Source: Macrostomum lignano
Taxonomy: Eukaryota
DNA length: 44,499 nucleotides
Reading direction: 5' to 3'
Assembly: GCA_002269645.1 (NCBI GenBank)
Contig: NIVC01004485.1
Location: forward strand, 1 to 44,499
In this document: positions 1-21,448 of the stretch, piece by piece
Layout of the letters: the number at the start of each line of letters is the position of its first letter
Numbering within the stretch: the stretch's first letter is position 1
Notes under the pieces: model-generated
Told to the model about the DNA's origin: nothing
The model's input: only the letters and a program-made list of their open reading frames with translations
Database searches by the model: none
Program-made: the position numbers and the translations under genes

Positions 1-2
1 CA

Positions 3-463
3 GCTGGTGGAGTAGCAGGTGGGGCGGCTGGAATTGCAAAAGCAGTAAACGACAAAAAAGCTGCGGATGAAAAAGCCAAACGAGAGGCTGAATTCCAAAG
101 ACAGCAAATAACTCAGGATGCTCAATTTAAACAAAAACTGATTGATACTATTAATAGTAGTTCGGCAACAGCAGAACAAAAAGAAATGCAGAAGCTAAAT
201 TAGCGGCTGGAAAGGGTTTAATCTTACAAGGAACGACCCACGGAAGCGGGGTTGTAGCAGATAAATTACACGAATTCGGACAAACTTTGGAAAAAACCGG
301 CAAAAAAGCTAAAGGATTTTTTGATAATATCGGAGCCAATTTTAGGCCAGCTGTTCAGAAGATTTTTAATAAATTAGGAAAAGATTTTAACATAATTGAA
401 AAGCACGACGGAAGCGGCTTATATCTTGAAATGAGACCAAAAGCGGGATCTGGAATTTTTTAA
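3..463 (+). pseudogene. C-terminal part of a Polinton virion/core-type protein with the AGGAAGIAKAVN motif (5'-truncated by the window edge; frameshift at the A-run near 181)
   Basis: Frame 3 reads AGGVAGGAAGIAKAVNDKKAADEKAKREAEFQRQQ... After a 1-nt shift it continues RNAEAKLAAGKGLILQGTTHGSGVVADKLHEFGQ...HDGSGLYLEMRPKAGSGIF* (TAA 461-463). From memory, the motif recurs in invertebrate Polinton proteins. Not in the ORF track. Confidence 0.7.
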
Positions 464-550
464 ATGCAAACGTTTCAGGCAGCGGGCTAATTTTACCAAA
501 AGCGCAACTCGAGTAGGGTAGTAAATATTGTATAAATTTTATTCTATAAA

Positions 551-3500
551 ATGGAACAAAGACTGACCCCAGATCAGATTCGACAACTTCTTGCAAACGA
601 GCGCGAACAGTTCAATCGATTACAAAGACAGGTTGAACAAATTGAACAGCGCCAAAGACAGCACCGTCGGCAAAGAGCAAGACAAAGACAAAGAGAGAGA
701 CAAAGAGAAAGAGAAATACAAGAACAACAAATAAAAGCATTAGCAAATGATATAAGGGCAGAATATGAAATGAAACGATTAATAGAAAAGGCCGAATATG
801 AAAAAAGAATAGCAGAGCTAGAAAAAAATCAAAAGAAAACCCAACGTCGGAAAACAAACATTAAATCGTCTGAACAACCACTAGAAGAATTTATTCGAGT
901 ATATAGGTTTGAACCAATGCAGAATGTCTTAGACTTTATTGAAACACAACTTTCAAACGGATATAGTGTTGAAATTACTAACGCGAGAGTACAATATTTT
1001 TATAACAAAACCGGCGATGATCGGGAAGAAATTAATCAATACTTAGCAACATTTTATAATATAAGTCAGTTTCAAGCTTGGTTTAAACATTTGGTAGAAA
1101 ACTATGATATGAATCTAAGCGTGTTTTCTGGAAGACTTAAAATGACACCAAACGTCATTACGATTAAACACGAAAGGTCAAAGCAAGGTATGGGCACAAA
1201 CGTCATGTGTGAAATTGCAGAGTATCAGGATGAGTATTGTTTCATACCTAGTGATGGTAATTGCTTCTATAAGTGTGTTAAATTTATTTATGGTGATAAC
1301 ACACCGTCTAAAGAAGAATATGGCGCTTGGTTGTACAACTCAAGAACTCAAAGAGGCATAATGACAAATTCAAGAATTGGAAAATTCAATGAGCATTTTA
1401 ATTTGAACATAGGTTTATGTATAACCCTAATAATCGGGGAATAGAACCAAAGTCACAAAGAGGCATCCACCACGATTGGTTATTAATAAATTACTACCAC
1501 GCAGCTGATTATCATATTGGACATTATTGCCTCATATCCAATAAACAACGAGGAATTGGTCTTGATTGGATAAAAGAGAATTATAAAGTAGTATTTAAAA
1601 ACCCAAAATCGGATAGTGTGCAAGAGATAAAAATGTTTAATACTCCGACAAATCCAAATAAATCAAACGTATACATATTTGATTTTGAAACATATTTAAA
1701 CGATAATCAACAAGCATGTCCGTATGCTGTTGGTCTTTTAAACTATAATGACTTTTCTAATAATTGTAACGAAAGCCCAGAGTCGATAAAGAAATTAACT
1801 AAGATCTTGATTTCAGATCGCGGATGTGATTTCAAAACAGACGGAACAAAAACGGACTGCGTTAGAAAAATGTTTAAATACCTTGGTTCAGTTAAGTCAA
1901 AAAAGATTGTTTTGATCGCCCATAACTCATCCCGCTTTGATTCTTATATACCACTATTTTGCAACATAAAACCAATTAAAATTCTTAAAACCCCCAGAGG
2001 AATATTATCAATAACTTTTGTTAATGATTATATGTCAAAAGAGGTATCAGCGTTTATAAACAAAGATAAAAAGAAGAAACATAAGGATTCAAAACAAACC
2101 ATTACGATGCTTTGTTCATATCAACACGCCTCAATGAGTTTAAAAAAGTTTTGTTCGTCAATGACAATTAGAGAGGATTTGCGCAAGACATCAATGGTGC
2201 ATGACATTACTGAGGACGATTATCTAGAACGGATTGATGAATGGTATGAATATTTACAATTTGATCTTATTTCTTTGTGTGCTTGTATTCATAAGTATAA
2301 CGAAATCGCATATGCAATTGGAGGCATGACAATGTTTGATACTCTTACATGTTCAAGTTTAACATTAAAATGTTGGTTTAAAGATTTTGTTAGAGTGGAA
2401 GACAAAATGAAAGAATACCTAAAGACAAAAGAAAAAACCAACTATATTAAGAAAGTCGAACAAATAATTTCTCCATTGAAAATAGAAGATTATTTTGACT
2501 TGTCTAAGCTTGAAAAAACGAAATATCAAACATTATTAAGAAAAGAATTTTCTGTTTACTCTCATATTGACCCCTATATAAGAAGATTTATGCGGGAGGC
2601 AGTCAAAGGAGGCAGAGTATTTGCACTAATAAATAAATACGAAAGCGAATGTTTTCAAACAATTGTAGACGTTGTAAAAGACCACTTAAAAACACCAACA
2701 GCCGACCCATGCGAGGTTATATCAACTTATCTCAAAAGCGATATGGAAGAAAAAAAGAAAATTGCAATTAAATTAAAAAACGAATTGGGTACTGTATCTG
2801 ATTGTTTAATGAACTTTGATGGGGTGTCATTGTACCCATCCGCCATGTCTGATAAAGATAGTGAATACCCAAGAGCAGAAAGTGGTAGGGTGTTTGATAT
2901 AAGCGAGGAAAAATATTTTTTGTCACAGTTTAATTCCCAAACGTTTCGACCAAAAACAGCGATTTTAAAGATTATGTATGAAAATCCTAACACCGTTTTT
3001 CTTCAGCATCTCCCATCTAAGGACAAAGAGAAATTTTATAATCCGGAGACAAAAGCAAACGAAACAAAAACATTAAATAGGTTCAGAAACGGAAAGGTAA
3101 TCGACACCCTTTGCTCGGTAGACATACAAGAAATCGTAAGAATGGGTGGTAAAATATTAAAGATATATAGTGGAATTGTATATGAGAAAAATTACGATTT
3201 CTCTCCGTTTCAGAATTATATTACAAATCTTTTTGAAATGAGAAAAAATGAGAAAAGTATTTAAAAAAGAAAATAATGAGGCGGGTTCTGAATTGATAAA
3301 AACACTATTAAATTCATTATATGGTAAAACAGTTCAAAGAGACATTACTTTCACAACACATCTCTGGAATTTGAATACATTAAAAAATGAATACGACGAC
3401 ACAATCAAGTCATATGAGAAAATATGTGACGACTTATTTTATGTAGAAAAAAAGAAAGACACGCAAGAATATATAGAAGACGACGACAATCCAACAACCG

Positions 3501-4144
3501 GACTTTGTTCTGCTCAATTAGGCATATTTATTTTAGCTCATTCAAGAAGAATTATGAATAATTTTATCACATCAATCGACGGATCAAAGAATCCAGAAAT
3601 TTATTACGGAGACACCGATTCATTATATATACATAAAAAACATTGGGATACATTAAATAAAAATGGGCACGTCGGAAATAATTTAAGTCAAGGAAAAAAC
3701 GATTATGGAGAGGGCGGAATTATATTCGGATATTTTATCGCTCCTAAAATTAAATATTGTCTTTTGTTGAAAGACGGTTTTATATTGGAAGAGAAAAAAA
3801 CATTTAAAGGTTGTGCAAACGATAGGGTTAATTTTGCATCGTTTAAAACTTTATATGATGGTCAATCAATAAAAGTAAATAATAACGCCCCATGGAAACG
3901 ATCGTTTGAAGGTGGTATAACAATTGGTCAAGGTTTTATATCAAAAACATATACACCATCAATTAATACTTATAAAAGAGAAAAACCGGATAAAAAAGGA
4001 ATTATGAAACCATTCTTTAAAAATTATTTTGATGACAAACCGGAACATGAACATACAATTGAATATTATAACAGCTTACTTTTTGATGTTGATTATAATT
4101 GTTTTGAGTTTGATATTGATGAACTAGCACTTATAAAAAACTAA
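551..4144 (+). pseudogene. polB: Protein-primed family B DNA polymerase (pPolB) with N-terminal coiled-coil/terminal-protein region and OTU-like protease domain, split into three ORFs (551-1444, 1417-3264, 3248-4144)
   Basis: ExoI YIFDFETY, ExoII AHNSSRFDSY, ExoIII YLQFD, (R)EAVKGGRV, motif A FDGVSLYPSAM, motif B KTLLNSLYGK, motif C YGDTDSLYI, APKIKY. Breaks: a -1 shift near 1415 and a tandem 10-bp duplication AATGAGAAAA (3237-3246/3247-3256). Repaired length is about 1190 aa. Confidence 0.97.
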
Positions 4145-4410
4145 AGCATGTAATTCCTTAAGTAGAATATCCATTTCCATTTCATATTTTATAGAACACC
4201 AATTATCTTCGCAATCGTCAGGATAACTTAAACACTCTTTTACTTTTTTCGAAGTATTTTTATTCGTCTAACAAGACGATCTATCTCATTTTCAATAACG
4301 GTTTCAGCATAAGCAATTGCGGCTTTTATAAAAGTTCTCTTTTTTCTAATTCATATCGAATCGGAAACATATCATCGTAAAGATACGCGAACTTCGTTCG
4401 GTCTCCATAA
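4142..4410 (-). pseudogene. Small degraded hypothetical ORF
   Basis: Piecewise minus-strand translation gives ...AYLYDDMFPIRYELEK / FIKAAIAYAETVIENEIDRLVRRIKNTSKKVKECLSYPDDCEDNWCSIKYEMEMDILLKELHAL*, which needs a frameshift. No recognisable motif. Confidence 0.35.
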
Positions 4411-4520
4411 TCACTATATTTCTGTTCGTTAATTATATTTAATTTTTTATTAATATCATTCATTTCTTTATTGTGAGTGCACAGAAGGTTTTTTACGCTC
4501 GCCATTTTCTTATAAAAAAT

Positions 4521-4844
4521 TTAGTCTTCCTCCCAAACAGCAGCCAATTTTACAGTCCTGTCAACCTTTTTGTTTATTGCTTGTCTTTGTTTAAATTGCA
4601 AACCATCCGTTGGTGAGTATTTCATAATAAAAGTTTTAGGTTTATTTATAACAATCGTTGGGAATTCTTTAACCTCATCGCCGCTTAAGCATAGTATTGT
4701 TCCACCGTTTAGTTGTAAAAATATCGATTGAATTCCGATAAATTTAACCTGTCTTAAACATATTATATCATACTCCTTCGGCACCAGAGAATTGGTGGTT
4801 AGAAAATTAATTTTATTAGAATCGGTTTTGAACCAGGTTTCCAT
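4521..4844 (-). CDS. Hypothetical viral protein (107 aa)
   Basis: Intact ORF with the element's TAAAAATG start context; no recognised motif. Confidence 0.6.
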   Translation of the reverse strand: METWFKTDSNKINFLTTNSLVPKEYDIICLRQVKFIGIQSIFLQLNGGTILCLSGDEVKEFPTIVINKPKTFIMKYSPTDGLQFKQRQAINKKVDRTVKLAAVWEED

Positions 4845-4870
4845 TTTTATTCTAAAAAAATAATAAAATA

Positions 4871-5411
4871 ATGAAACACAGATATGAATGTAATAAATGT
4901 AATATTACTATGCAAAGAGGACAAACAGCAAATTGAGATATATATCACATGTGTTATTCATGCGCTAAGATATATCAATTTGAAAAAAACAAAAAAGATT
5001 GAAAACTCATATTACTATTTCAAAAACACAATTATAAGAAATTTATCATGTGACATTTCACACCCATCCCTTCAAATGCCAGACGGCACACAAATTAATG
5101 CCATCCCCGGAAATAATGTTTATTTATATAATAACTTTTTTCATTTAAATAAAGGAAAAGGATTAAGTTCGAAAGACTCCGAGAGGATTTTAACTCTGGT
5201 TGGATATTATTTCAATTTTCTTATGAGAGAGAACACAAAACATATAAGGATCAGAAATATCCCAAGTGAAATGTTATTGAAAAAGTCATTGGTATTTTTA
5301 TGTATTGATAAAAAATTTGAACCTCGAATCAAAAGGCAATTACCATTGTGGGAAGAATATATAACTTATGTATTAAAAAAGTTACTGATGGGTCTACATA
5401 GAATTTCTTAA
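4871..5411 (+). CDS. Hypothetical viral protein, possibly with an N-terminal CxxC...CxxC zinc ribbon (disrupted)
   Basis: The track ORF is 4884-5411. An alternative frame from ATG 4871 reads MKHRYECNKCNITMQRGQTAN*DIYHMCYSCAKIYQFEKNKK and could join the main frame at the A-run near 4985-4997. Confidence 0.45.
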
Positions 5412-5425
5412 ACTCTCTAAATTAA

Positions 5426-5740
5426 TTATTTCCACACTTTTAATACTAAATGGAGCACCATATAAAACAAATTCTTCTTGCATATATTGTGGCAGGTTTT
5501 TTGGGGAATACCAACCAACCCCCTAACATAATTTTTAATAATATATACACCAAAAAAGTAGCATGGATAAGAACCATCCAACATCTGCGTATATATATTT
5601 ATACCATCTACCGAAGCCATTTTAAAAAGGATTTTATCCTCTACATTTAATTCTTCTTTCGTTACGTAAAAGGTTACATCTTTGGTAGACGGGCAGGAGT
5701 TCGCATCCAAAATAACTTTATGTATTATTCCTTGATCCAT
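5426..5740 (-). CDS. Hypothetical viral protein (104 aa)
   Basis: Intact ORF with CTAAAAAATG start context; no recognised motif. Confidence 0.55.
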   Translation of the reverse strand: MDQGIIHKVILDANSCPSTKDVTFYVTKEELNVEDKILFKMASVDGINIYTQMLDGSYPCYFFGVYIIKNYVRGLVGIPQKTCHNICKKNLFYMVLHLVLKVWK

Positions 5741-5764
5741 TTTTTAGAATATATTTTTAATAAA

Positions 5765-6447
5765 TTACACAACCTGAAGTTCTATCGTGCTACCTGACCG
5801 TGGGCTTTGTACACCATCAGCTATAACCTCAGGCTGGTACTCCATCGTTCCGAAGGAACGCGGACTTTGTCCGATCGTTTCTATAGGTGGAGGGTTCGGT
5901 TTGTCAAGTCTTAATTCTTTCAATTCCATATCGGTAAAAGCTTCAATATCTAAAATTCGATTTCTATCTTTTAAATATTTATCATATAACTCAACCGCGG
6001 TTGTTAACTCATATATTGTAATCTCTCCATCATCTAATATTTTTTGCACATATAAATATAACTGATTTTTATATTGTTTAGCAACATCTCTTAGTGATTT
6101 ATATTTATCCTTTCTTTTTTAAGATATAGTTTAATTGCCAAAAGAATTGATAAGTTTCTTATTAATTCAAAACCTGATATTGAACCAATTGAAATACCTA
6201 AAAATAATTGAGATAAATTAATAGTTGGAATCGATTGCAAAATACCCAAAACGATTACACATAACATTGATAAACTTCCAAAACCAATATTGAAAAAATC
6301 CATATTCCTGATATGGTTTGAAAGCTTTCTTAATTTTTTATTATATAAATCATAATCATAATTTATTCGATCGACATTACTTAACATGCGTCCTTTACGT
6401 TGGTTAAATAGATCGCGCTCTTTTCTGTCCGCTTCAGACACCGACAT
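5765..6447 (-). pseudogene. Two-transmembrane-helix Polinton accessory protein, frameshifted (track ORFs 6091-6447 and 5765-6049 joined)
   Basis: Hydrophobic pair FFNIGFGSLSMLCVIVLGIL / LFLGISIGSISGFELIRNLSILLAI. The downstream ORF's frame is open upstream (KDKYKSLRDVAKQYKNQLYLYVQKILDDGEIT) as far as the A-run near 6110-6120. Confidence 0.6.
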
Positions 6448-6763
6448 TTTTGTCTATTTTTAATAACACCAAAATGAATTCCCCACGCTCCTTAGGAATC
6501 TGTCCAGCGCTCAATAAGTATTGGATTGGAGTTATTCTTTCTTTTTTCTCCCATTTAAATCCAATCTTCCAAAACTCTTGTAATATAATATGGTTTTTTA
6601 ATAATTTAATTAACTCCTGAAGTTTCTTATTGTCTTGAACATTCACTCCGCTAAATAAAATTTTGGTATGAGATCTAAAAGTTTTTATATTTGATTCTTG
6701 TTTAGGAATCGGAATAATAATATTATTACCTTGCCGCATTGATGGAGTTCTGCTAAAAGCCAT
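6434..6763 (-). CDS. Hypothetical viral protein (109 aa)
   Basis: Intact ORF with TATAAAATG start context; overlaps the start of the next gene. Confidence 0.6.
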   Translation of the reverse strand: MAFSRTPSMRQGNNIIIPIPKQESNIKTFRSHTKILFSGVNVQDNKKLQELIKLLKNHIILQEFWKIGFKWEKKERITPIQYLLSAGQIPKERGEFILVLLKIDKNVGV

Positions 6764-6813: not shown

Positions 6814-8807
6814 TTAGCTGATAGCTACCGGCGGCCTTTCCAAATAAGGAGTAGATGGAAAAGTATAACCAAATGATGTACTACCACAAACTATTGCTCC
6901 ACGAATAAAATGCGCCGCATCCGCTCCTCCGGTTCGAGCACCAAACCCCATAAGCGTTCCGGATTTATCTAGATCTCCCCAAGTGCCACTATCATACGTA
7001 AAAACATTTTGCCCAATTAGTGTCAAAGAATCTCCAGCAACATTGTATGAGCTTAACTGATACCAAACTCTTTGATTAAGAATATTAATTTCAAAAAGAT
7101 GCCAATTGCCATTATCAATATTGGCATAGGTTACAGTTTGGTCGGCGTCATTTAGAACGTCATTGCGGACGGTTGCTCCGTCAGCTTTTTTATTACTCCA
7201 AAGCAAGCCGAATCTGTCATGCCATTCACTAGCAAACACTATTAAGCCGGCGTCGGTTGTTAAATCAGATCCATATTCCGTTGTTGGTCGTTGGTGGCAG
7301 TAAGCATAAAACCAAACGGCGTCTGCACCAGCTCCACCACCCGCAGCATTAGCAACTCGGAAATAGAAGGAGACAGAAACATTACGGAAATGGGTGAAAT
7401 TAAATTGTAACGCTCCATTGAGTCCAGCGCATTCGTCAGTAATTCTTGCGCCGTTTTGATAATCAATATAAATCGCATTTCCAACCATAGACCCAGTTGG
7501 AAAAATATCGCCAGCAGTTGTTGGGTTTTGATAGCCATTCCAATTACATATTACTGGCTCATATAAAGCGGCATCAATTGCCGGAATACCATCCAATTTA
7601 ATTTTATCATTAAAAGACATTCTACCGTCCGCCGTTTGTGTTACAACCGTATCGACATAACCTTTAGTCACAACAGATGTGTTATCGTTTATAGTAGATA
7701 TATTAGTAATTGTATTACCACCCATATCAATAGACTGATTTACTGCTCCTAAATTCAAATCAATAACGGTAAAAGTCTGCCTGTAAATCTGAAATGTTGA
7801 TAAGCCTGGATTGGTTGAACCCGATGTTGATGTAAGACAAAACAATTTGAAATATGAATATTCTTTATCAAAATTTTGTGTGACATTAAATGTTTGGGTT
7901 GAATTATTTAACTCCGCCGAACTCGCCGCCGGAATCAAAACATCATAACTTGTATTGTCATTACTTCCTTCAAATCGCCATGAAGCAGGGTGCTCGGTTG
8001 AGGGCGACGGTCTACCACGCAAATCAATTTTATAACACATTATCGCGGATGGACATTGGACTTGAATCCAGTAATCTGTTTGTGTTGCATTAGTTGCCCA
8101 ATCCGTTGCGTCGTCCCCATCAAAAGCTTTCCAACTTGCAAAGCTGGTTGTATTAAATGCCGAGCTTGCTGTGATCGCAAAACCGTTTCCACTCCAAGCA
8201 GCCATTGTTGGTACATGACCGGTTTGAACGGTTTGGAACCTATCTTGTTTTGGGGTTCCGCTCCCGACTATATTATCAACCTCGGTTTTGGTATAAGAAT
8301 CCGCGACATTTCGTTTCAAATTTAAGGAGTTATCTATTTGAGTTTGACTATAGGAATCGCTTATATCTCTTTTTAAATTTAACGAATTATCAACCTCGGT
8401 TTTGGTATAAGAATCGGTTATATCTCTTTTTAAATTTAATGAATTATCAATTTCCGTTTTGGTATATGAATCTGCCACATTCCGTTTTAAATTAAGTTCG
8501 AAATCAACTTCGGCTTGACTATAAGAATCTAATATATTACGTTTTAAATTTAATGAATTATCTATTTCCGTCTTGCTATATGAATCCGCAGTATTGCGTT
8601 TTAAATTTAATGAATTATCGATTTGAGTTTTGGTATAGGAATCTGCAACATTCCGTTTTAAATTTAATTTAGTATCGATTTCACTTTTTTATAACCTTCG
8701 TCTTTATTTATATATCGGTTGTCTCCAAATGTAACACTTATTCCACTCGATTCTCCGCCGCCAGTTCTTGAAGTTCCGTTCCATGAGGGTGTTCCACTAA
8801 ATAACAT
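6814..8807 (-). CDS. Putative receptor-binding fibre/spike: 19-aa repeat shaft, discoidin (F5/8 type C)-like domain, stalk motif and C-terminal ConA/L-type-lectin-like domain; one frameshift near 8685
   Basis: The likely start is ATG at 8807 (MLFSGTPSW...), with one A lost in the run at ~8685-8690. Then come 8 x DSYTKTEIDNSLNLKRN repeats; WKAFDGDDATDW...YWIQVQ...WRFEGSND (discoidin-like); MGGNTITNI...TKGYVD (fibre stalk motif); and GADAVWF...WHLFEI...GFGARTGGADAAHFI (legume-lectin-like). Confidence 0.75.
8270..8700 (-). repeat. 57-bp coding tandem repeat (about 8 copies) encoding the fibre shaft
   Basis: The units ADSYTKTEIDNSLNLKRDI / TDSYTKTEVDNSLNLKRDI / SDSYSQTQIDNSLNLKRNV etc. differ largely by synonymous or conservative changes. 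Confidence 0.9.
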
Positions 8808-9264: not shown

Positions 9265-9474
9265 TTATGTTCCTGAAAAACTCTTTGTTTTTGTTAGTTT
9301 CTCGGACAAAGTCCGCGACACTACGTGGCGACTATCCGCGGGTTTTAATAGTTCCTGTCTTGTTTTTTCGGCTTGTAGATGTTTCAATTTTGTTAATTCG
9401 ATTTCATAATTATCTTTTGCTTTTTGAACTTTTACCATTTGATTTTTTATCATACCTTCGGTACTATTACCCAT
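9265..9474 (-). CDS. Small coiled-coil hypothetical protein (69 aa)
   Basis: Intact ORF packed between penton and protease, with CTAAAAATG start; its stop TAA forms part of the protease start motif. Confidence 0.6.
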   Translation of the reverse strand: MGNSTEGMIKNQMVKVQKAKDNYEIELTKLKHLQAEKTRQELLKPADSRHVVSRTLSEKLTKTKSFSGT

Positions 9475-11928: not shown

Positions 11929-14900
11929 ATCGCACTGCGACCGAGGTCGCGGTGCGCAGTGCCGAGATACCATCGACCACCTGTTTGGAGTTAGATGTTA
12001 AAATCAACAATACCTACAGCAAGTTTCTTGTGGATACCGGAGCCTCGGTTTCCATTGTTCCACCTCACCTCGTTAACGCACTCGTTCAAGATACAAACGT
12101 TCGTTTAATTACTGCTACCGGAGCCGCCATACCAGTTCGCGGGTCGGTCCTACTGGATGTCTCAATCCGCGGTTTGCGTCGCGCCTTCCAGTGGACCTTC
12201 CTCGTGGCGTCAGTGGTGAAACCCATAATTGGTTACGATTTCTTGGCTCACCATGGGTTAGTTGTCGATTGTCAGCGCAAACACGTTCGAGACTCAGAAA
12301 CAGGACTGTCTACTGTTACCTTGTCAATTTCAAATGTTCATTGTGGCCCATTCACTGTGTCGGTAGAACTGCCACCCAACCTGGATTCTCGGACGAGTAC
12401 GCTGTTGACAAAGTTTGCAGATTGTTTTTCTTTCGTTGAAGGCGGAGCCCTTCCGCCAGCTTCAGAGGTCAAGCATGACACTGTTCACCGGCTAGACACT
12501 GGTAGTGGACAACCAATTCACTTGCGACCCCGGCAACTGCACCCTGCAAAACTACAGGCTGCAAAGCAGGAGTTTCAGCAGCTAATCGATGCTGGCTACC
12601 TCAGACCTTCCTCAAGCGCTTGGGCGTCACCCCTCCACATGGCACCCAAGGGAGCTGGCTGGCGTCCGTGCGGTGACTATCGCGAATTGAACAAACGAAC
12701 AAAGCCGGACAACTATCCGGTTCCACACATTCAAACATTCACTCGGTACCTACACGGAAGCACTGTGTTTTCAAAGTTAGACCTTGTTCGCGCCTTTCAT
12801 CAAATTCCAGTCGCCGAAGAGGATATTTGCAAAACCGCTATCACCACACCGTTTGGATTGTTCGAGTACACACGCATGCCCTTCGGCCTGAGGAATGCAG
12901 CACAAACATTTCAACGCTTCATCGACTCTGTTTTTCACGGACTGTCATTCGTCATCTCTTACATCGATGATGTCCTGATATTCTCAAAGACTCGTGAGGA
13001 CCACTACTCGCATTTGGAACAAGTTTTGGACCGCCTAAGAACACACGGCCTACAGGTTCATTTGAAGAAGTGCGAATTCTTTCAGTCCGAGGTAGATTTC
13101 CTTGGCCATCGCGTGACTCCTGAAGGAATAAAACCTCTCCAGAAGAAGATCCAAATAATCACTGACTGGCCGACACCCACGGATTCGAATGCACTTCGGC
13201 GCTTCCTCGGTGTCGTCGGTTTCTACCGTCGATTCGTTCCCAACTTTGCCGACTGCATCTGTCCGCTGCAAGACCTACTCACTGCATCACTACAGTCAGC
13301 AGGAAACTTCCAATGGACAGAGCAGCATCAGAAATCTTTCGAAAACATCAAACAAGCTCTCTCAGAGAGACTACTGCTGCATCATCCGGACCCCAACTGT
13401 ACTGCGTACCACCTGTACACTGATGCCTCAGCCGACTGTGTTGGTGCCGTTCTGCATCAAACCTCTTCAACCGGAACGTCACCTCTTGGCATGTTCAGCA
13501 AGAAGTTGTCGTCATCTCAAAGGATGTACAGCACGTTCGACCGAGAACTACTCGCGGCGTACCTGGCAGTGTTGCACTTCCGCAGCCTCATTGAAGGACT
13601 GAGCGTGACCTTGTTCACCGATCATAAACCACTAGCTCAGGCCTTCCACGCCAATCGCACCACTACGTCAGATCGCAATCAGCGCTACTTGACCGTCTTG
13701 TCCGAGTACGTGGCAGATGTCCAGTACATTCGCGGTGCAGACAACGTAATAGCTGATGCCCTTTCTCGACTGCCTGACTTCCCAGTGAATGATCACGTGT
13801 CCAACATCGCAACAGTCGCTGTAGTCGCTGCCCCATCAAGCCAATTCCCTGTTGATCTGCCCAGTATCGCTGAAGCACAACGACCGGAGTCGTTCTCAGC
13901 TGCACCAAATATTCGATCGTATTCTCTGGACAAAGACGTCGTCGTTTGGTGTGAGACGTCAACGCCGTATCCTCGCCCGATCATTCCGCCATCCCTCCGC
14001 GACGCCGTGATTGCTTCCTTCCATCGACTTGGTCATTTCGGCTACCGTAAAACAGCAAAACTCATCACAGAACGTTACTTTTGGCCCGGAATGCGCAAGT
14101 CCATCAAGACCTACTGCTGGAACTGCCAGGACTGCCAACGGAGTAAAGTCACTCGCCACACTGTCTCCCCGCAACAGGCCTTCGCATTACCATCAAATCG
14201 CTTTGAGGCGGTACACATCGATATTGTGGGACCACTTCCACCAGCTAATGCTACCACCTTTGGCCACCAGTCTGCTCGCTACCTTCTCACGATGGTCGAC
14301 CGCTCGACTGGCTGGCTAGAAGCTACACCACTGGAATCAATAACCGCGGAAGTAGTCGCCCATGCATTCGTCTCGTCTTGGGTCTCGCGCTACGGAGTGC
14401 CACTGTATGTAATCACTGATCGGGGGCGCCAGTTCGAATCAGAATTCTTTCACTCGGTCTCGTCATCAATTGGTTTTCATCGATTACGCACAACGGCCTA
14501 CCACCCTCAAACCAATGGCAGGGTCGAGCGAGCCCATCGCACCCTGAAGACGATGCTACGTGCTCGAGGCAATGACTGGCTGACAGACCTACCTGTGGCT
14601 CTCCTCGCGATGCACGTCGCACCTGACGACCAAGGAATATCACCGTTCACCAGGGTTACGGGCGAGCTTCCGATGGTTCCGCGCATTCTAACTTCTGAAC
14701 CACTCGCCCCAACGGACATTCGGACACGGCTGCAGGAACTGCTGACAGAGTTACCGAGTCCACACGCGAAGACGCACGAACCACGGAGCTACGTACCCAA
14801 GGACCTGGAAATGGCTGAATTCGTCTGGGTTCGGGTCGATCGCGTGCGGTCGCCGCTCGAGGCGCCGTACTCAGGGCCGTATCGCGTGAAACAGCGAACT

Positions 14901-15068
14901 GACAAGTTCTTCGTTATTTTCCTACCGTCAGGCAACACCGAATCTGTCTCTATCGATCGCCTCAAGCCGGCGCGACTTTCGCTTCCGAAGTCGGCTGTTC
15001 AAGTCGGCTGGCAGGGTCGAGCGAGCCCATCGCACCCTGAAGACGATGCTACGTGCTCGAGGCAATGA
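11919..15068 (+). CDS. pol: Pol polyprotein (protease, RT, RNase H, integrase), probably reached by a -1 frameshift; C-terminus altered by an internal duplication
   Basis: [10 protein letters not shown]; RT YIDDVLI; RH YTDAS...DRELLA...TDHKPL; IN zinc finger H-H-C-C, HIDIVG / ITDRGRQFE / VERAHR, and GPY motif. The frame is open from 11919 ([14 protein letters not shown]...). Confidence 0.96.
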
Positions 15069-15494
15069 CTGGCTGACAGACCTACCTGTGGCTCTCCTCG
15101 CGATGCACGTCGCACCTGACGACCAAGGAATATCACCGTTCACCAGGGTTACGGGCGAGCTTCCGATGGTTCCGCGCATTCTAACTTCTGAACCACTCGC
15201 CCCAACGGACATTCGGACACGGCTGCAGGAACTGCTGACAGAGTTACCGAGTCCACACGCGAAGACGCACGAACCACGGAGCTACGTACCCAAGGACCTG
15301 GAAATGGCTGAATTCGTCTGGGTTCGGGTCGATCGCGTGCGGTCGCCGCTCGAGGCGCCGTACTCAGGGCCGTATCGCGTGAAACAGCGAACTGACAAGT
15401 TCTTCGTTATTTTCCTACCGTCAGGCAACACCGAATCTGTCTCTATCGATCGCCTCAAGCCGGCGCGACTTTCGCTTCCGAAGTCGGCTGTTCA
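14516..15494 (+). repeat. Tandem duplication (493-bp period) of the integrase 3' region
   Basis: 14516-15001 is repeated at 15009-15494 with a 7-bp linker AGTCGGC. Track ORF 15046-15624 is the second copy plus the original C-terminal tail. Confidence 0.93.
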
Positions 15495-15804
15495 GCCGGC
15501 CGCGAACTCGCTGCCGGAAAAAGCCGCCAAACCAAAGGAACCGGTGGACTCATCACCTCCTAGAGCGACCTCTAGCGGCCGCCGAGTCCAATTCCGACGC
15601 CATAATGATTACATTTATTATTAACCTTGTAATGTATAACGTCTACTGACTGCTGTTCCAATGTTCTCAATATTTCTCAATGTTCAACCCTTCATATAAA
15701 ATTTAGCTCGTATTTCAACTGTATAACCGCTTCGTTTCAATAATTTAAGCCATTCCACCATTTTATAATTCAGTTACAGTCTCTTTTCCCCGTGCTCCGC
15801 AATT

Positions 15805-15815
15805 GGAGGGGGGAG
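15805..15815 (+). promoter_or_regulatory. Polypurine tract
   Basis: GGAGGGGGGAG just upstream of the 3' LTR. Confidence 0.85.
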
Positions 15816-15818
15816 TCG

Positions 15819-15992
15819 TATGGGTATTTTGTTGTACTTTTTATTTGCAACTCAGTTTGTCATAAATTACCATAGACTAATTTCCTTTTACAGTTCTTTC
15901 TCGCAGTTAAGTTTCTCGCCCCAAGCCCTCTCGTCTTTAACTCATAAAATATATTGCAATTCGAATCTAAGTCAAGTTGTAGTTTCACTACA
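15819..15992 (+). repeat. 3' LTR (174 bp)
   Basis: Appears identical to 10784-10957; followed by the TSD CCCT. Confidence 0.95.
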
Positions 15993-16288
15993 CCCTCAAT
16001 GTCAGAAAGTTTGAATTTTGGTTCATCGTCGTCCTCATATTGCTCATATGCTCTTAACATTCTAAATAAAATATCTTTTTTTAGTTTGTTTTTTAATCCA
16101 TGTTTAAGAAATTCATAATATTTTATTCTAGGTCTATTTGTATATATTATTAAATTATTATAATCTAACATTCCATTGGTTGTTAATAAATCATAAACAA
16201 AGTGTGTTTTTCCTTTACCTGATCCTCCAACAACTAAACAAAGAAAAGGGTCGTTGGGAAATATTTTATTATGTTTTGGCTTTACCAT
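15993..16288 (-). pseudogene. A32/FtsK-like packaging ATPase, N-terminal part
   Basis: Walker A CLVVGGSGKGKT. Excising the retrotransposon and one CCCT restores LSDIEG|LCRET and a 256-aa ORF. Confidence 0.93.
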
Positions 16289-16308: not shown

Positions 16309-17790
16309 CTAACTTTTTCCTATGGGGGCGTCCTGAACAACGGTGCCGTCGGCTTTAGCAATCGCCATATACTCCTCTAGAAACAATGCGTGGGCGTCTA
16401 CTGCCTGATTTCCAGTTTTATTAATCTCCAACATATAATTCAAACCAATATTTGCTACATTTGCTTTCTGTGCGGTTAGATCAAAAACAACCACGGGGTG
16501 AATGTTTAGAAACTCTGTGGGAGTATATTGAGGAATGGCGTAGGCTTCGTTTTTGACGTAATCCTGATAATATTTTATAAAATCATTAACATCATTATTT
16601 CCAACATTTAGATTAAGGGGGTTTTTAACAGGATAATATTGATCATCAACCTGCAGTCGGATGTTCTGAAGATTAAATGTGTTAATCGCCGAAAGCGCGT
16701 TGTCACTTGCGGTGGCTGCTTGAGCTGCTACATCACCAGATTGAAGCCAATATAAATCACCGTTTCCTCTTTTGCTAGTTCTGTTTGGTATTTTAAACCA
16801 AATAAAAATATACCTCACCCGACGTTTTGTTTGTATGATTTGCCACTGGAATGAATCCTGATTGTTATTAATGGTTCGCATAAAGTGGCGGCGATTCAAA
16901 TAAAATATATCCTGGTCTAACATTATCTGATCATCAATATGTTTTAAAAGCGGAGCAGTTACCTCGATAGTTGGCACAACTAATTTAATCGAAACAATTC
17001 GAACTGCAATATCGGTTGAGGTTGAACTTCCAAAAAGTATCCTGGGCTGATATCCACCAGATATTTGCAGTTGTACCCCAAATTTTAATCCCTTCCATAC
17101 CCGATTTGGTGAGAAAAACCCAAATAGTGGAAAGATTGAAAAGTCTTCCTCATAAGCGGTTGCTGTGGTTAAAACCGCGACTGGGAATTTATTCCGACGG
17201 TCTATAAAACCAGTGTTTATATTTTTGGTGTTGGTTAGATCCGTTACAACCGGAACTATATTATTATTTAAATAATTAATAAGAGCTGCGGTGTCTGCGC
17301 CAGCTGCTGGTGTTATTTGGGGAAAAATCCATGGTCTACCATCTCCCTTATCAGGCATCCATCCAACGTTATCACCAACCTGTTTTGATAAATATGTATA
17401 ATTTAAATGTTTCAAAACTCCATTAATCTCTGCTGGGTTTGTAGCCGTCTCAACCTCGGCTCCGTTAATGGTTAGTTGTGCTTGGGAAAAACATTTATAA
17501 AACCAATCATTTTCTATAATAATGCCAGCGCGATCAGCGATATCGGGGGCTGTAAGGGCTGTTCCATCGTTTCTGGTATACAACCACCTAACTCGGAAAA
17601 ACGCATTTTTCATATCCAATATGCTGCTGGTTGCACCAATGTCAAAAGTTACTGTTCCCGTTGTAAAGTTATTTGAATTATCGCTTGTTGGTTGGGTGTA
17701 ATTTAAATCTCTTGATCTGACCTCATTGATATACTGTCGTTGTTTTTTGAAATGAAATTTATCACTCCAAATGGTTTTTGTCTCGGCCAT
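16309..17790 (-). CDS. Major capsid protein (double jelly-roll, Polinton PY/hexon-like), 493 aa, intact
   Basis: Size, beta-rich pattern (VTFDI...LDMKNAFFRVR...ENDWFYKCFSQAQLTINGAEVE...) and position beside the ATPase and penton. Confidence 0.88.
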   Translation of the reverse strand: MAETKTIWSDKFHFKKQRQYINEVRSRDLNYTQPTSDNSNNFTTGTVTFDIGATSSILDMKNAFFRVRWLYTRNDGTALTAPDIADRAGIIIENDWFYKCFSQAQLTINGAEVETATNPAEINGVLKHLNYTYLSKQVGDNVGWMPDKGDGRPWIFPQITPAAGADTAALINYLNNNIVPVVTDLTNTKNINTGFIDRRNKFPVAVLTTATAYEEDFSIFPLFGFFSPNRVWKGLKFGVQLQISGGYQPRILFGSSTSTDIAVRIVSIKLVVPTIEVTAPLLKHIDDQIMLDQDIFYLNRRHFMRTINNNQDSFQWQIIQTKRRVRYIFIWFKIPNRTSKRGNGDLYWLQSGDVAAQAATASDNALSAINTFNLQNIRLQVDDQYYPVKNPLNLNVGNNDVNDFIKYYQDYVKNEAYAIPQYTPTEFLNIHPVVVFDLTAQKANVANIGLNYMLEINKTGNQAVDAHALFLEEYMAIAKADGTVVQDAPIGKS

Positions 17791-17824: not shown

Positions 17825-18508
17825 ATGAGTCAGTTTATGGACGTTGATGGAGAGTTGGCGATTTATAAAGAGAAGCAAAGATATTCTGATTTTGTTAGAG
17901 ATTTACAAAAAAGAAAGCTAGGAATACAGTTAGCTGGCGAAAAATTTGCTGCTCCTTTTGTTAATCCTATTACGGGGAAAATTAGTGAATTAACAAAAAC
18001 TGATAAAGACCTTCTTGAAAAAATAGCAAAGAATACGGAGCCAAAAGAGGAAGATATTGTGGAGGATGAGCCGCCTACTTATGATGAGGCACGGGCTGTT
18101 TTGAGAGTTGCAGAGATTAGAGCTGCGGAACGTGGTGGTGATATTGAGCGATTTCAAAGAGGTGCGCCAGCGAGTGTTGCTGTTATAAATTTAGGGAATG
18201 ATAATTATCGGGTTGGTACTAGGGTTACAAAAAGTCGGGATGATTTATATATAGAGTTGGGTGGAGCATTTAATATTGTTACAAACCCTAGTGTAAAGTT
18301 TAATCCTGATTTATATACTCGGGACGAATTAATAAGTGCTAAAATTTTTTATGATGATTTGGGTGAAAGTGCTGTTAAAAGAACTAGATTGTATAAGCAT
18401 ATTGTTGATTCCATAAATAATAAAAGGGCTGTTGGGCAAGGATTAAAGACTCCGCGAAAACTTGTTTTAGCCGCTGCCAAAGCTGCCGGACATACTGGAA
18501 TTAATTAA
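17825..18508 (+). CDS. Polinton conserved hypothetical, possible core protein (227 aa)
   Basis: Intact ORF with TAAAAAATG start; N-terminal helix with FAAPFVNPI and a basic tail after AVGQGL. Confidence 0.7.
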   Translation: MSQFMDVDGELAIYKEKQRYSDFVRDLQKRKLGIQLAGEKFAAPFVNPITGKISELTKTDKDLLEKIAKNTEPKEEDIVEDEPPTYDEARAVLRVAEIRAAERGGDIERFQRGAPASVAVINLGNDNYRVGTRVTKSRDDLYIELGGAFNIVTNPSVKFNPDLYTRDELISAKIFYDDLGESAVKRTRLYKHIVDSINNKRAVGQGLKTPRKLVLAAAKAAGHTGIN

Positions 18509-18532: not shown

Positions 18533-19085
18533 ATGGATATAGCAATAAAAAGACACCTTTGTAAACCCATTTGTGAAAAGATTGGATCAGATAGAATACT
18601 AAATAAAATATTTCAAGATGATTTAATAATTGCAAACCGTATTAAAACTATTCAAATGAGGCTTGGATCTCTTTATGAATTATTAGCTATTGAATATTTT
18701 GGTTTTGAAAAAATAAATAGAATTGATTTAATTCATACTAAAAGAAAAGTTGCGTTAGAGTTAAAATCGTCTGATAATACAGATCAGATAATATATTAGT
18801 CTGATAATATCGAGTCGATTTAGAAATATTCAGAAGTTATTAGAATTTAGATATGTCAATCCCGAATTTGATTTATATTATATTTGCATTAATAACACCA
18901 CTAAAAATCCTGTACATAAAGTATTTGATAATGGTGTTACTCTGTTAACTGGGGAATTTGCTTTAAAATTTTTATATGGTGATCAATATTTGGAAATAAT
19001 TAAACTCATTGAAAATTGTTTTTTAGACATTAAAAATGAACCAAACAACGTTCGCGATCCGAAGGAACGACCAACTTGTGTATGA
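18533..19085 (+). pseudogene. PD-(D/E)xK restriction-endonuclease-like protein (Eco47II-like), disrupted near 18790
   Basis: QMRLGSLYE...RIDL...VALELKSSDNTD, then after a TCTGATAATA micro-duplication it continues SRFRNIQKLLEFRYVNPEFDLYYICIN...LLTGEFALKFLYG...CV* (TGA 19083-19085). Confidence 0.6.
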
Positions 19086-20648
19086 AGGTGGCTTGTTGGA
19101 TGTTCAAAAAGGATTAACAAGCTTACCAAGCGTTTTTACTAGTGGGAAGTATACAAATGAATTACACATTCCAGGGTACTCGTTTGCAGGTTATCCGTGG
19201 CCTGAGTGAGGAAGTCAATGTCCTTGCTAGTCACTATTAGTGGCGACATCTTCAAATTGCGTGAAACCCGTCATACAGCTTCAAGTCCACTTCAATTGAG
19301 AAATCTTTTGAAGGAACAGAGGTAACTCCTCTTCCCAAAGGTAACAAGCTTGAAGACAAGGTGGCAATGCGCAGCCAAGCTCCTAAGTCCGTCCGGTGGC
19401 CGATATGGAGAAGGTTCAGAGAGCAGACGGAGATGGGTGGTAATTTAGCCGTTTAAGGTGTGCTCCAGCCTCTATCGAAAGATTGGGGGTAAACTACCCG
19501 GGACAAGATTGGATTTGAGATTAAATCCAGATGGAACTCCAAAAGCAGATTCAATTTCCATTAACGGAATTGATTGGTTAGCATATTATCATGACTTAGC
19601 ATACAGAGATGCTGATAAGAACTCTCCTGAGGAAGCATTAAGATTAAAGCATGAAGCCGATAGAAAAATGATTGAAGGATTAGATAATCTGCAAGAATTG
19701 TCGGTTGGCCAAAGATTAACTCGGTGGATGGTTAAAAAGATTTTGCAGTCTAAAGTTAAATTTGGTTTGGGAATTAATTATAATCAACATGGAAATAATT
19801 GTGTTGAGTGTTTGCTATTAAGTGGTGGTGGGTTAAGTTCTGATGAGGCAAAGATTCTTCACAAAGAATACCGAAAACCGAAATTTTACAGAAAGATCAT
19901 GAACTTTAAAAAGAATGAAATTTGGTATGCTGATTTAATGGCTATGCCGTCCGATCGGGGATATAAATATATTTTAACTATATTAGATGGTTTTACTCGA
20001 TATGCGTGGGCTGTTCCTTTGAAGTCCAAAAAAGGAGACGAGGTTGCTTCTGCTTTTAGAAGTATTGGAGAAAAAAGTGAACGTTTATGTGTTGATGAAG
20101 GAAAGGAATTTTATAATCCACATATGTATAAATTATATCATTTTGAAAAAGGAAAAGAAAGGAAAAAGGACGCTAATGGGGAGTATATTAATAAGATTTA
20201 TTCTATTTATGGCGAAAGCAAAAACGCTTTAATAGAAAGATTTAATCGAACTTTAGGTAAGAAATTGTGGTTTGAGTTTAGGCTTAATGGTAACCAAAAA
20301 TGGGTAAAGATATTATTAGACGTAGTGAAAGATTATAATAATTCATTTCATTCGGCTATAAATATGACTCCGCAACAAGCTTATAACAATCCTGAAAAAG
20401 TTAAAGTTACTTTTGGAGAATTTGAAAAAAAGAAAAATAAACCTTTTAAAGTTGGTGATTCTGTTTATATCTATAAATGGAAAGATAAGTTTGAAAAGGG
20501 AAGAAAAGGATATTAGAAAATAAGTGAGAAATTTTCTGTTAGTAAAGTTTTAAATACAAATCCTACAACCTATATCATTGCTGATAAAGATGGTGAAGAA
20601 ATATTGGGTTCGTTTTATGAAAGCCAATTACTTAAGGCAACAAGGTAG
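19036..20648 (+). pseudogene. Parvovirus-type phospholipase A2 domain fused to a Polinton RVE (DDE) integrase; split by a 305-bp insertion and a TAG
   Basis: ATG 19036 gives ...ELHIPGYSFAG|PGTRLDLRL...YYHDLAY...HEAD (PLA2 Ca-loop and HD). Integrase motifs WYADL, LCVDEGKEF, IERFNRTL. The TAG at 20514-20516 sits at a conserved Trp and the frame continues KISEKF...PTTYII.D..GEEILGSFYESQLLK to 20648. Repaired length is about 435 aa. Confidence 0.92.
19191..19495. other. Unclassified 305-bp insertion
   Basis: More GC-rich than its flanks; splits the Gly codon of FAG|PGT; removing it restores the frame. No TSD or TIR evident. Confidence 0.8.
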
Positions 20649-20795
20649 TAATTTTTTTATAACAAACAAAAGTAATATTATTACTATTGTAGCTACTAAT
20701 ATCATTATTGACATTTGTTCAACTGTTACCAAACTTAAATTTTCATGAAGTTCTTTAACTGGAACTTTGCCAATGTAGGAATAATTTATGTTCAT
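20628..20795 (-). CDS. Small single-TM hypothetical protein
   Basis: Probable start MNINYSY (CTAAAAAAATG); hydrophobic MSIMILVATIVIILLLFVI followed by KK. Confidence 0.55.
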   Translation of the reverse strand: MNINYSYIGKVPVKELHENLSLVTVEQMSIMILVATIVIILLLFVIKKLLPCCLK

Positions 20796-20811
20796 TTTTT
20801 TAGTTATATTT

Positions 20812-21111
20812 TTACAGATTATCTGAATCACTAGTTTCATAAGAACTATTTGTTGATTCGGAATCTGTTGACCTAACCTCCCAATCCTCGGAATTTAAAT
20901 AATCTCCAAGTTGAAATATTAACTCACCCTCTTGTTCTAAATCATACAAACCATCTAACTCTAAAGGATAAAGTTTTAGTTCGTGCTTGTCGTCGTATTT
21001 TAAATAAACTTCCTCAATTATTCCATTCAATATGTGCTGTTTTATTATCTCTGCATTTTTAGCAACGGTCTCAAAAGTATCACTTACTGAAAAGTTGTAA
21101 ACTCGGTTCAT
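20812..21111 (-). CDS. Small acidic hypothetical protein (99 aa)
   Basis: Intact ORF with CTAAAAATG start; last gene before the terminal non-coding region. Confidence 0.6.
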   Translation of the reverse strand: MNRVYNFSVSDTFETVAKNAEIIKQHILNGIIEEVYLKYDDKHELKLYPLELDGLYDLEQEGELIFQLGDYLNSEDWEVRSTDSESTNSSYETSDSDNL

Positions 21112-21124
21112 TTTTAGTAACAGA

Positions 21125-21448
21125 AAAAGACCCTTCGCGCCTACGGCGCGGGCGACGGGTTTGTGTGTGTTTGTGTGTGTTTGGATGCTTTTTGAATACG
21201 ATACAAAATTGCCAGCAAACTAAAGCGAACGACGAGAGCGAATTCTCAGTATTCAAAGAGAATTGATCATTATCAAGTTGAAATGAAGTGTGTTTGAGCG
21301 GAATGAAGCGAGGATGAGCGGAGCGAGTTGAGCGGAGTGAAGACGAGCGATAATGGAGTGAAAAACGATTCATTTCAACTTGATAATGATCAATTCTCTT
21401 TGAATACTGAGAACGGTTTGCTGGCAATTTTGTATCGTATCTACTACT
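21125..21448. repeat. Right terminal non-coding region (probable TIR) containing an internal inverted repeat
   Basis: Perfect arms 21196-21220/21416-21440 (25 bp) and 21243-21287/21369-21413 (45 bp); ends in CTACTACT. TIR status is inferred because the left end is not visible. Confidence 0.8.

What the first reader, a model, noticed from the sequence alone, without database searches (positions are those of the whole stretch)
1..21448. Nearly complete endogenous polintovirus with an unusual accessory gene set
Seen: all six Polinton core genes plus a fibre, a REase-like gene, PLA2, a 2-TM protein and several orphans, ending at a defined terminus. The structural genes (MCP, ATPase, penton, 69-aa ORF, protease, fibre, 109-aa ORF, 2-TM) form one minus-strand cassette with gaps of only about 1-50 bp. 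Known: Polintons/adintoviruses carry this core and are predicted to form virions. Inferred: this is a virion-forming lineage in an invertebrate, and the combination of a lectin fibre with a REase-like nuclease may define an undescribed group.
Basis: partly seen in the sequence, partly recalled or inferred. Interest (0 to 1): 0.8.

Follow-up and report, generated by a model that had tools for sequence, protein, structure and literature searches.

The report
Group I intron in flatworm Polinton
A decayed Polinton-type virus copy in a flatworm chromosome is an ordinary kind of element, but one of its genes is interrupted by a group I ribozyme intron, a type of RNA otherwise known mainly from microbes, organelles and viruses of microbes.

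Summary
The element is real: a capsid-encoding Polinton integrated in a flatworm. A flank GPCR gene hits only Macrostomum lignano proteins. The 493-aa ORF folds as a double jelly-roll; the penton fold is untested. This copy is dead. It has eight lesions in seven genes, including a 5.2-kb Gypsy element inside the ATPase. The left end, second TIR and TSD lie outside the window. Lectin fibres are already described in PLVs and MELD viruses, so 'fibre plus REase' is weak ground for a new group.

The finding does not mention the real oddity. A 305-nt ORF-less group I intron (19192-19496; Rfam RF00028, 55.3 bits, above the cut-off) splits the PLA2 domain of a PLA2-integrase fusion gene exactly between two codons. 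Its core is intact and IC1-like, but its last base is A. Two relatives show traces of the same intron; 71 of 120 are uninterrupted. Ten literature searches found group I introns only in protist PLVs and chloroviruses, none in an animal Polinton. Splicing is not shown.

The parts
1..463 (+). Open-ended ORF in two frames; second piece has four G-x-G-[LIV] motifs; probable virion core (pX-like) protein
   Evidence: role inferred from recalled adenain-type cleavage motifs, no family hit
551..4144 (+). Protein-primed PolB with an N-terminal OTU-like motif; in three frames (breaks near 1402-1444 and 3242-3264)
   Evidence: OTU motif by eye only
4326..6118 (.). Five small orphan ORFs (4326-4520 -, 4521-4844 -, 4884-5411 +, 5426-5740 -, 5765-6118 -)
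   Evidence: no meaningful Pfam or PHROG hits
6091..6447 (-). 118-aa ORF with one clear hydrophobic stretch (second one weak)
6434..6763 (-). 109-aa orphan ORF
6814..8807 (-). Fibre: 19-aa repeats, F5/8 type C (discoidin) domain, C-terminal head; frame break near 8690
   Evidence: phrog_17517 tail protein E 2e-19
8831..9263 (-). Probable adenain-like cysteine protease; frame break near 8976-8995
   Evidence: motifs by eye; weak tblastn to an ORF in L001 and to L008; no Pfam or PDB hit
9265..9474 (-). 69-aa coiled-coil-like orphan ORF
9485..10270 (-). 261-aa penton candidate, intact
   Evidence: position in cassette; Atlas 0.98 to unnamed Preplasmiviricota clusters; fold not obtained
10305..16288 (-). 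A32/FtsK-like packaging ATPase, split into 16288-15993 and 10783-10305 by the LTR element
10784..15992 (+). Gypsy-type LTR retrotransposon: identical 174-nt LTRs, 4-bp target duplication, gag, 1064-codon pol frame, internal 493-nt exact tandem duplication
16309..17790 (-). Double jelly-roll major capsid protein, 493 aa, intact
17825..18508 (+). 227-aa orphan ORF, intact
18533..19085 (+). PD-(D/E)xK restriction-endonuclease-like gene; frame break at a 14-nt tandem repeat near 18792; ends 106 nt before the intron
19036..19191 (+). PLA2-integrase gene, exon 1 (N-terminal part of the PLA2 domain)
   Evidence: P0003 residues 1-32, P0006 residues 7-44 align up to 19191
19192..19496 (+). ORF-less group I intron, 305 nt, IC1-like; last base A
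19497..20648 (+). PLA2-integrase gene, exon 2 (rest of PLA2, RVE integrase); premature stop at 20514-20516
20812..21111 (-). 99-aa acidic orphan ORF
21196..21448 (.). Right terminus: internal palindrome (25-nt arms 100%, 53-nt arms 94%) ending in ACTACT at 21448
   Evidence: terminal motif of Polintons recalled, not from a call
41115..43597 (-). Host marker outside the element: multi-exon rhodopsin-type GPCR gene with GT-AG introns

Best explanation
The region is the right-hand 16 kb of a Polinton provirus (polintovirus or adintovirus type) in a Macrostomum flatworm chromosome. It is now dead, with frameshifts, a stop and a recent Gypsy insertion. Its PLA2-integrase gene carries an ORF-less IC1-like group I intron that the virus brought with it. 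In the working virus the intron RNA would fold into the group I ribozyme, bind guanosine at P7, cut at the U-G pair in P1 and join the exons, so the PLA2 calcium-binding loop and the full fusion protein could be made. Shown: the parts, the folds, the Rfam match, the helices and the exact codon-boundary insertion. Inferred: virion formation, PLA2-aided entry with a packaged integrase, and splicing in the ancestral virus. The terminal A most likely reflects decay of this copy, though a natural terminal A is not excluded. The intron is optional among relatives, so it moves between virus genomes. The leading guess for how is gene conversion started by the neighbouring free-standing nuclease (about 25%); reverse splicing is the alternative.
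For: Rfam RF00028 at 55.3 bits against a cut-off of 50, E 1.6e-13, whole model matched. P1 with U-G at 19191, P2, P2.1, P3-P9, the P7 G-C guanosine site and P10 (5 of 6 pairs) can all be drawn. The insert falls exactly between residues 32 and 33 of P0003 and 44 and 45 of P0006, with nothing lost. It has stops in all three frames, a length not divisible by 3 and no GT-AG ends. Intron GC is 48% against 34% for the element. P0005 and P0034 begin with a peptide 9 of 13 identical to the translated 3' end of this intron, the best of about 88,900 six-frame 13-mers in the window; the next best is 7. Of 120 relatives examined (232 found), 71 are uninterrupted, 6 are intron candidates, 2 are unclear and 41 do not cover the site. 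Host: the only 2 hits of the flank GPCR are UniRef M. lignano proteins, 67% identical. The Gypsy insertion with a target duplication shows the element was chromosomal, and its 1064-codon open pol argues that the element's breaks are not local assembly noise.
Against: The last intron base is A, where group I introns nearly always have G, so this copy may not splice. Splicing was not tested. The minimum-energy fold is no better than shuffles (z -0.58), and Rfam missed the intron in a 22-kb scan. The helices were drawn by hand on one sequence, with no covariation data. Intron status of relatives rests on predicted protein N-termini; four of the six candidates (P0012, P0014, P0028, P0031) are weak. 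Their hosts, and whether P0003 and P0006 come from DNA or spliced RNA, are unknown. The host marker lies 20 kb from the terminus across long tandem repeats, and the GPCR gene itself has a frame break. The penton and protease were not confirmed.
Confidence: 0.72

Rival explanations
1. The virus replicates in a microbial eukaryote (food, commensal or environmental) and entered the flatworm germline by accident. The intron then belongs to the known protist-PLV pattern and never had to splice in animal cells.
For: IC1 introns are typical of microbial eukaryote rDNA (PMC3679873). PLV introns are reported from three protist hosts (PMC12220804). Discoidin fibres are common in protist PLVs. The closest relatives are unnamed records with no host.
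Against: PLA2, an adenain-like protease, an OTU-type PolB and a G-x-G-L-rich ORF fit animal adintoviruses (PMC8502044). 22 of 26 MCP relatives scanned match PF21738 at E 0.01 or better; that this is the Polinton MCP family is recalled. The element has a clean terminus against host DNA.
Confidence: 0.17
2. The contig is chimeric or the element comes from a co-sequenced organism; it is not in the flatworm genome.
For: Long tandem arrays lie between the terminus and the GPCR gene, and an exact 493-nt duplication in the Gypsy could be an assembly fault. Such contamination is documented for adintoviruses (PMC8502044).
Against: The Gypsy element inside the Polinton has the same GC as the flank (52% and 52%). 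The junction falls exactly at the terminal motif.
Confidence: 0.06
3. One reading: the novelty is an undescribed virion-forming group defined by a lectin fibre plus an REase-like nuclease.
For: Both genes are present, and the MCP has only two close relatives.
Against: Lectin and discoidin fibres are already described in PLVs and MELD viruses. No second genome with the pair was seen (0 of 27 loci). The nuclease's position beside the intron site offers a selfish-element explanation instead.
Confidence: 0.15
4. The insert is a dead passenger that landed in an already inactive provirus and never spliced.
For: Terminal A; the element has eight other lesions.
Against: P1 and P10 pair with this gene's own exon sequences. 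The site is the most conserved PLA2 motif. Diverged relatives (57% identity) show the same intron end at the same codon.
Confidence: 0.05

Closest known systems
Polintons/Mavericks, 'polintoviruses' (PMC4028283, passages read)
   Same: pPolB, RVE integrase, A32-type ATPase, protease candidate, double jelly-roll MCP, penton candidate one gene from the MCP, size class 15-20 kb
   Different: Divergent MCP, PLA2 fused to the integrase, group I intron; second TIR and TSD not seen; this copy is inactivated
Adintoviruses, Alpha and Beta (PMC8502044, passages read)
   Same: Animal host, PolB with an OTU-like N-terminal motif, PLA2 domain, hexon-like MCP
   Different: PLA2 is joined to the integrase rather than to a pX-like domain (PLA2X); Alpha or Beta class not determined; the paper's one mention of 'intron' concerns a group II maturase
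Group I introns in protist PLVs (PMC12220804; passages and 32 of 51 rows of Table S11 seen)
   Same: ORF-less RF00028 introns of about 300-380 nt in a protein gene of a Polinton-like element
   Different: Hosts are Rhodomonas, Paulinella and Desmodesmus; the Rhodomonas introns sit in a small gene beside the MCP. Here the host is a bilaterian and the gene is PLA2-integrase. That study barely sampled animals.
Nuclear IC1 introns such as Tetrahymena L1925 (PMC3679873, passages read)
   Same: P2, P2.1, extended P5 with an A-rich bulge, GAAA loop and 11-nt receptor, G-C site in P7 (subgroup features partly recalled)
   Different: Those interrupt rRNA genes of microbial eukaryotes; this one interrupts an mRNA and ends in A
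[quoted passage not shown]
   Same: Group I intron in a protein gene of a eukaryotic DNA virus
   Different: Algal giant virus, subgroup IB, not integrated
Hexacoral mitochondrial ND5-717 intron (PMC6545197, passages read)
   Same: Animal group I intron ending in A; it still gives ligated exons in vivo, at low efficiency
   Different: Mitochondrial, giant, non-bilaterian; here the terminal A may simply be decay
Collaborative homing in phages (PMC3984707, passages read)
   Same: [quoted passage not shown]
   Different: No cleavage or co-occurrence evidence here; the nuclease is only an Atlas lead and is broken in this copy

Membership tests
Polinton / polintovirus | Protein-primed family B polymerase | tested here: met
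   PF03175 31.1 bits against 25.8 on one piece; phrog_1907 on two pieces; gene in three frames
Polinton / polintovirus | RVE integrase | tested here: met
   PF00665 E 9e-7, slightly below cut-off; close relatives P0005 and P0006 pass it
Polinton / polintovirus | A32/FtsK packaging ATPase | tested here: met
   Pox_A32 is the best hit on both halves, each below cut-off; Walker A visible
Polinton / polintovirus | Adenovirus-like cysteine protease | tested here: inconclusive
   Motifs by eye; no Pfam, PHROG or PDB hit on the pieces
Polinton / polintovirus | Double jelly-roll major capsid protein | tested here: met
   pLDDT 88, pTM 0.88; Foldseek E 1e-15 to iridovirus MCP, 4e-15 to mavirus MCP
Polinton / polintovirus | Single jelly-roll penton | tested here: inconclusive
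   Single-sequence model pLDDT 35; no PDB sequence hit; Atlas 0.98 to unnamed viral clusters
Polinton / polintovirus | Terminal inverted repeats at both ends and a 6-bp target duplication (recalled) | not testable with these tools
   Left end lies outside the window; no inverted copy of the last 60 nt within it
Alpha adintovirus | PLA2X: PLA2 with a C-terminal pX-like domain | tested here: not met
   PLA2 runs into the integrase here and in many relatives; not filed as Alpha
Alpha or Beta adintovirus | PolB class and clustering of virion proteins with the Mayetiola or Terrapene types | not tested
   No reference sequences at hand
Group I intron (RF00028) | Score above the Rfam gathering threshold | tested here: met
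   55.3 against 50 bits
Group I intron (RF00028) | P1 with a U-G pair at the 5' splice site; P10 with the 3' exon | tested here: met
   P1 19187-19191/19200-19204; P10 5 of 6 pairs
Group I intron (RF00028) | P3-P9 core with the G-C guanosine site in P7 | tested here: met
   P7 19421-19425/19461-19465, all Watson-Crick
Group I intron (RF00028) | Terminal guanosine (near-universal; ND5-717 is an accepted exception) | tested here: not met
   Base 19496 is A; filed as a group I sequence, not as a splicing-competent copy
Group I intron (RF00028) | Self-splicing with exon ligation | not testable with these tools
   No RNA data or assay
Subgroup IC1 | P2, P2.1, P5abc with A-rich bulge, GAAA loop and 11-nt receptor (recalled list) | tested here: met
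   All located by inspection
Subgroup IC1 | Placement by subgroup-specific models or a tree | not tested
   No subgroup models available
Collaborative homing pair | Free-standing nuclease next to an ORF-less intron | tested here: inconclusive
   Position met (106 nt); nuclease identity is a lead only, the ten best family hits being REase clan
Collaborative homing pair | Nuclease cuts the intron-less allele near the insertion site | not testable with these tools
   Needs an assay; DNA around the relatives was unavailable

The most novel reading that the evidence does not exclude
Polintons that infect bilaterian animals carry mobile, self-splicing IC1 introns in an essential PLA2-integrase mRNA. 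The intron splices in flatworm nuclei, which would be an undescribed case of a group I intron in a nuclear protein-coding transcript of a bilaterian. It may tolerate a terminal A, and it may spread between virus copies with the help of the adjacent free-standing PD-(D/E)xK nuclease.
Probability: 0.35. Interest if true: 0.85.

Novelty: new variant of a known kind. Interest (0 to 1): 0.66.

Why it matters
Reviews state that nuclear group I introns occur only in rRNA genes of microbial eukaryotes (PMC3679873) and are absent from animals apart from non-bilaterian lineages and five shark species (PMC10964413). A group I intron inside a protein gene of a virus integrated in a flatworm would show that Polintons carry ribozymes into animal germlines. 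It also offers a marker of Polinton activity: exon-junction reads would show transcription and ribozyme splicing in a laboratory model animal. Because Rfam missed the intron in a 22-kb scan and found it in a 400-nt scan, such introns may be overlooked in existing Polinton annotations. The Polinton alone is a new but ordinary, decayed member of a known kind.

Tried and rejected
Rfam scan of 1-22000: 0 hits, a false negative. Rescans of 4100-6900 and 20500-22200 found no further intron (one sub-threshold miRNA match on the terminal palindrome, taken as chance). A consensus-motif scan found P, Q, R and S in order only at 19254-19465; the motifs were recalled and tuned to this intron, so this is not independent. 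Free-energy folding of the intron was uninformative. A spliceosomal reading was rejected: no GT-AG ends at the exact junction. The single-sequence penton fold failed. PDB sequence searches gave nothing meaningful for the MCP profile, penton, protease piece and fibre. The intron had no real match among 50,697 phage records. The GTDB scan gave 27 loci with distant integrases; none had PLA2, MCP, fibre, REase or an intron by tblastn, blastn or motif scan. Cluster membership of the relatives could not be looked up, so their hosts stay unknown. Viral and metagenome contig collections and eukaryotic genomes were not searched. The tree is the quick tree (the careful search did not finish); it holds the window plus 76 of the 77 classified relatives. 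No complex prediction was run.


Full report
OBSERVATION. Bases 1-21448 hold an AT-rich element (34% GC without the LTR insert, against 52% for the flank). It encodes a PolB in three frames (PF03175, phrog_1907), a minus-strand cassette of MCP, ATPase, penton candidate, 69-aa ORF, protease candidate, fibre, 109-aa ORF and 118-aa ORF, and a plus-strand run of a 227-aa ORF, a nuclease-like gene and a PLA2-integrase gene. Cassette gaps are 20, 34, 10, 1, 23, 50 and -14 nt. The exception is the ATPase, split by a 5,209-nt Gypsy element with identical 174-nt LTRs, a 4-bp target duplication and a 1064-codon open pol frame. The element ends at 21448 after a long palindrome and is followed by GTTGCG. 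No inverted copy of the terminus lies in the window, so the TIR pair and TSD cannot be tested.

CAPSID GENES. With a 76-sequence alignment the 493-aa ORF folds confidently (pLDDT 88, pTM 0.88). It matches iridovirus, mavirus, Sputnik and PBCV-1 major capsid proteins (best E 1e-15) and MELD-virus and virophage models. Of 26 relatives scanned, 22 hit PF21738 at E 0.01 or better. Only two proteins are about 50% identical; apart from two short fragments, the other aligned relatives are 15-25% identical. The 261-aa penton candidate is unproven: the single-sequence model failed, there is no PDB hit, and the Atlas gives 0.98 to unnamed Preplasmiviricota clusters. The protease is recognised by motif only. 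The fibre has an F5/8 type C domain (E 5e-10). The nuclease is an Atlas lead at 0.92 to type II restriction endonuclease families.

STATE OF THIS COPY. There are eight lesions in seven genes: frame breaks in the left ORF, PolB (two), fibre, protease and nuclease, the Gypsy in the ATPase, and a premature stop in the integrase. The open Gypsy pol and MCP suggest these are real mutations rather than local assembly noise (inference). Against this, the flank GPCR also has a frame break.

HOST. A multi-exon GPCR gene at 41115-43597 gave 2 hits among 1,389 candidates, both UniRef Macrostomum lignano proteins at 67% identity; both also match its other exons. The host is therefore most likely a Macrostomum flatworm. 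The marker is 20 kb from the terminus across tandem arrays, so a mis-join is not excluded.

THE INTRON. The PLA2 motif is interrupted by 305 nt (19192-19496). Rfam found nothing in a 22-kb scan but matched the whole RF00028 model in a 401-nt scan, at 55.3 bits against a cut-off of 50, E 1.6e-13, and again in gathering mode. Uninterrupted relatives fix the boundaries: P0003 residues 1-32 end at 19191 and residue 33 starts at 19497; P0006 breaks between 44 and 45. The site is the conserved GPG loop of the PLA2 domain (its calcium-binding role is recalled). P1 has the U-G pair at the 5' site. P10 pairs with exon 2 at 5 of 6 positions, P7 is fully paired with the G-C guanosine site, and P2, P2.1, P5a-c, an A-rich bulge, a GAAA loop and an 11-nt receptor mark it as IC1-like (subgroup features partly recalled). 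The insert has stops in all three frames and no GT-AG ends, so the fusion protein needs ribozyme splicing. The last base is A, not the near-universal G. ND5-717 of hexacorals is a precedent for splicing with a terminal A, at low efficiency (PMC6545197, passages), but decay is the simpler reading here. Plain folding energy does not support structure (z -0.58), and the helices rest on one sequence.

RELATIVES. The exon-2 protein found 232 relatives; the best 120 were examined. Many carry both PF08398 and PF00665, so the fusion is a family trait. At the site, 71 are uninterrupted, 6 are intron candidates, 2 are unclear and 41 do not cover it. P0005 and P0034 begin with a peptide 9 of 13 identical to the translated 3' end of this intron, the best of about 88,900 window 13-mers. 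P0012, P0014, P0028 and P0031 have a Met just before the site, as an intron ending in TG would give; this is weaker. On a quick tree the window, P0003, P0005, P0006 and P0034 form one branch (SH-aLRT 100) with three interrupted and two uninterrupted members. The label needs 6 changes and is no more clustered than shuffles (80 of 500). P0012 and the uninterrupted P0010 are identical after the site. This patchiness fits an optional, mobile intron, but it is read from proteins only. The hosts of these records are unknown, and P0003 and P0006 could be spliced transcripts.

MECHANISM. Inferred life cycle: protein-primed replication from the terminal repeats, packaging by the ATPase into a jelly-roll capsid, protease maturation, fibre binding to glycans, PLA2-aided entry, and integration. 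In intron-bearing lineages the ribozyme must excise itself for PLA2-integrase to be made. The intron has no ORF. The nuclease-like gene ends 106 nt upstream, the layout of collaborative homing in phages, and PD-(D/E)xK is a homing-endonuclease family (PMC3984707, passages). I give this about 25%; reverse splicing or simple inheritance with loss are the alternatives.

COMPARISON WITH WHAT IS KNOWN. The core set is that of Polintons (PMC4028283, passages) and adintoviruses (PMC8502044, passages). PLA2 in Polintons is known (PMC3671162 and PMC4642659, passages; PMC11296320, passages). Discoidin and lectin fibres are known in PLVs and MELD viruses. Group I introns are known in chloroviruses (PMC7019647, passages) and in PLVs of three protists (PMC12220804, passages and part of Table S11); that study barely sampled animals. 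Reviews restrict nuclear group I introns to rDNA of microbes (PMC3679873, passages) and call them absent from animals except non-bilaterian lineages and five sharks (PMC10964413, passages; PMC9240083, passages). Ten searches showed no report of a group I intron in an animal Polinton, of Macrostomum Polintons, or of the PLA2-integrase fusion. The nematode Polinton preprint mentions group I introns only as a possible HNH source (10.1101/2023.08.22.554363, passages). The library lacks most subscription journals and Repbase, and I did not see the supplements of the adintovirus or nematode papers, so absence from print is not established.

VERDICT. The Polinton is a decayed new member of a known kind, and the fibre-plus-nuclease claim is weak. 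The group I intron is well supported as a sequence and makes this a new variant: a ribozyme intron in a protein gene of a provirus in a bilaterian genome. Whether it ever spliced in animal cells is open and directly testable. Interest 0.66.

Noticed in passing
window 10784-15992: Young Gypsy element whose identical LTRs begin TA rather than TG, with a 4-bp target duplication, and an exact 493-nt tandem duplication (14516-15494) near the integrase end; real or an assembly fault.
   Followed up: partly
window 21196-21440: Long imperfect palindrome just inside the right terminus, able to fold back as a single strand; possibly part of the replication origin.
   Followed up: no
window 226-260, 5836-5880, 6791-6820, 9301-9340, 21123-21160: Short GC-rich hairpins at several gene ends or between genes in the AT-rich element; possibly transcription or processing signals.
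   Followed up: partly
window 3235-3260 and 18769-18816: Two of the frame breaks coincide with short tandem duplications, suggesting replication slippage.
   Followed up: no
window 41115-43597: Host GPCR gene of the Srw-like type with a frame break near 43500; pseudogene or sequencing error.
   Followed up: partly
window 22799-23966 and 26562-28138, 32091-32370: Decayed retroelement pieces in the flank: an LTR-type reverse transcriptase fragment and non-LTR RNase H fragments.
   Followed up: partly
window 28827-31406 and 32933-33259: Exon-like stretches of unidentified host genes; no useful Pfam hit.
   Followed up: no
L001 4274-10945: A Polinton in a eukaryote-like contig of a bacterial MAG, with a protease-like domain fused to the integrase in one 469-aa ORF: a different fusion partner from the PLA2 seen here.
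   Followed up: no
proteins P0010 and P0012: Identical after the intron site but different before it; possibly intron-minus and intron-plus alleles of one Polinton family.
   Followed up: partly
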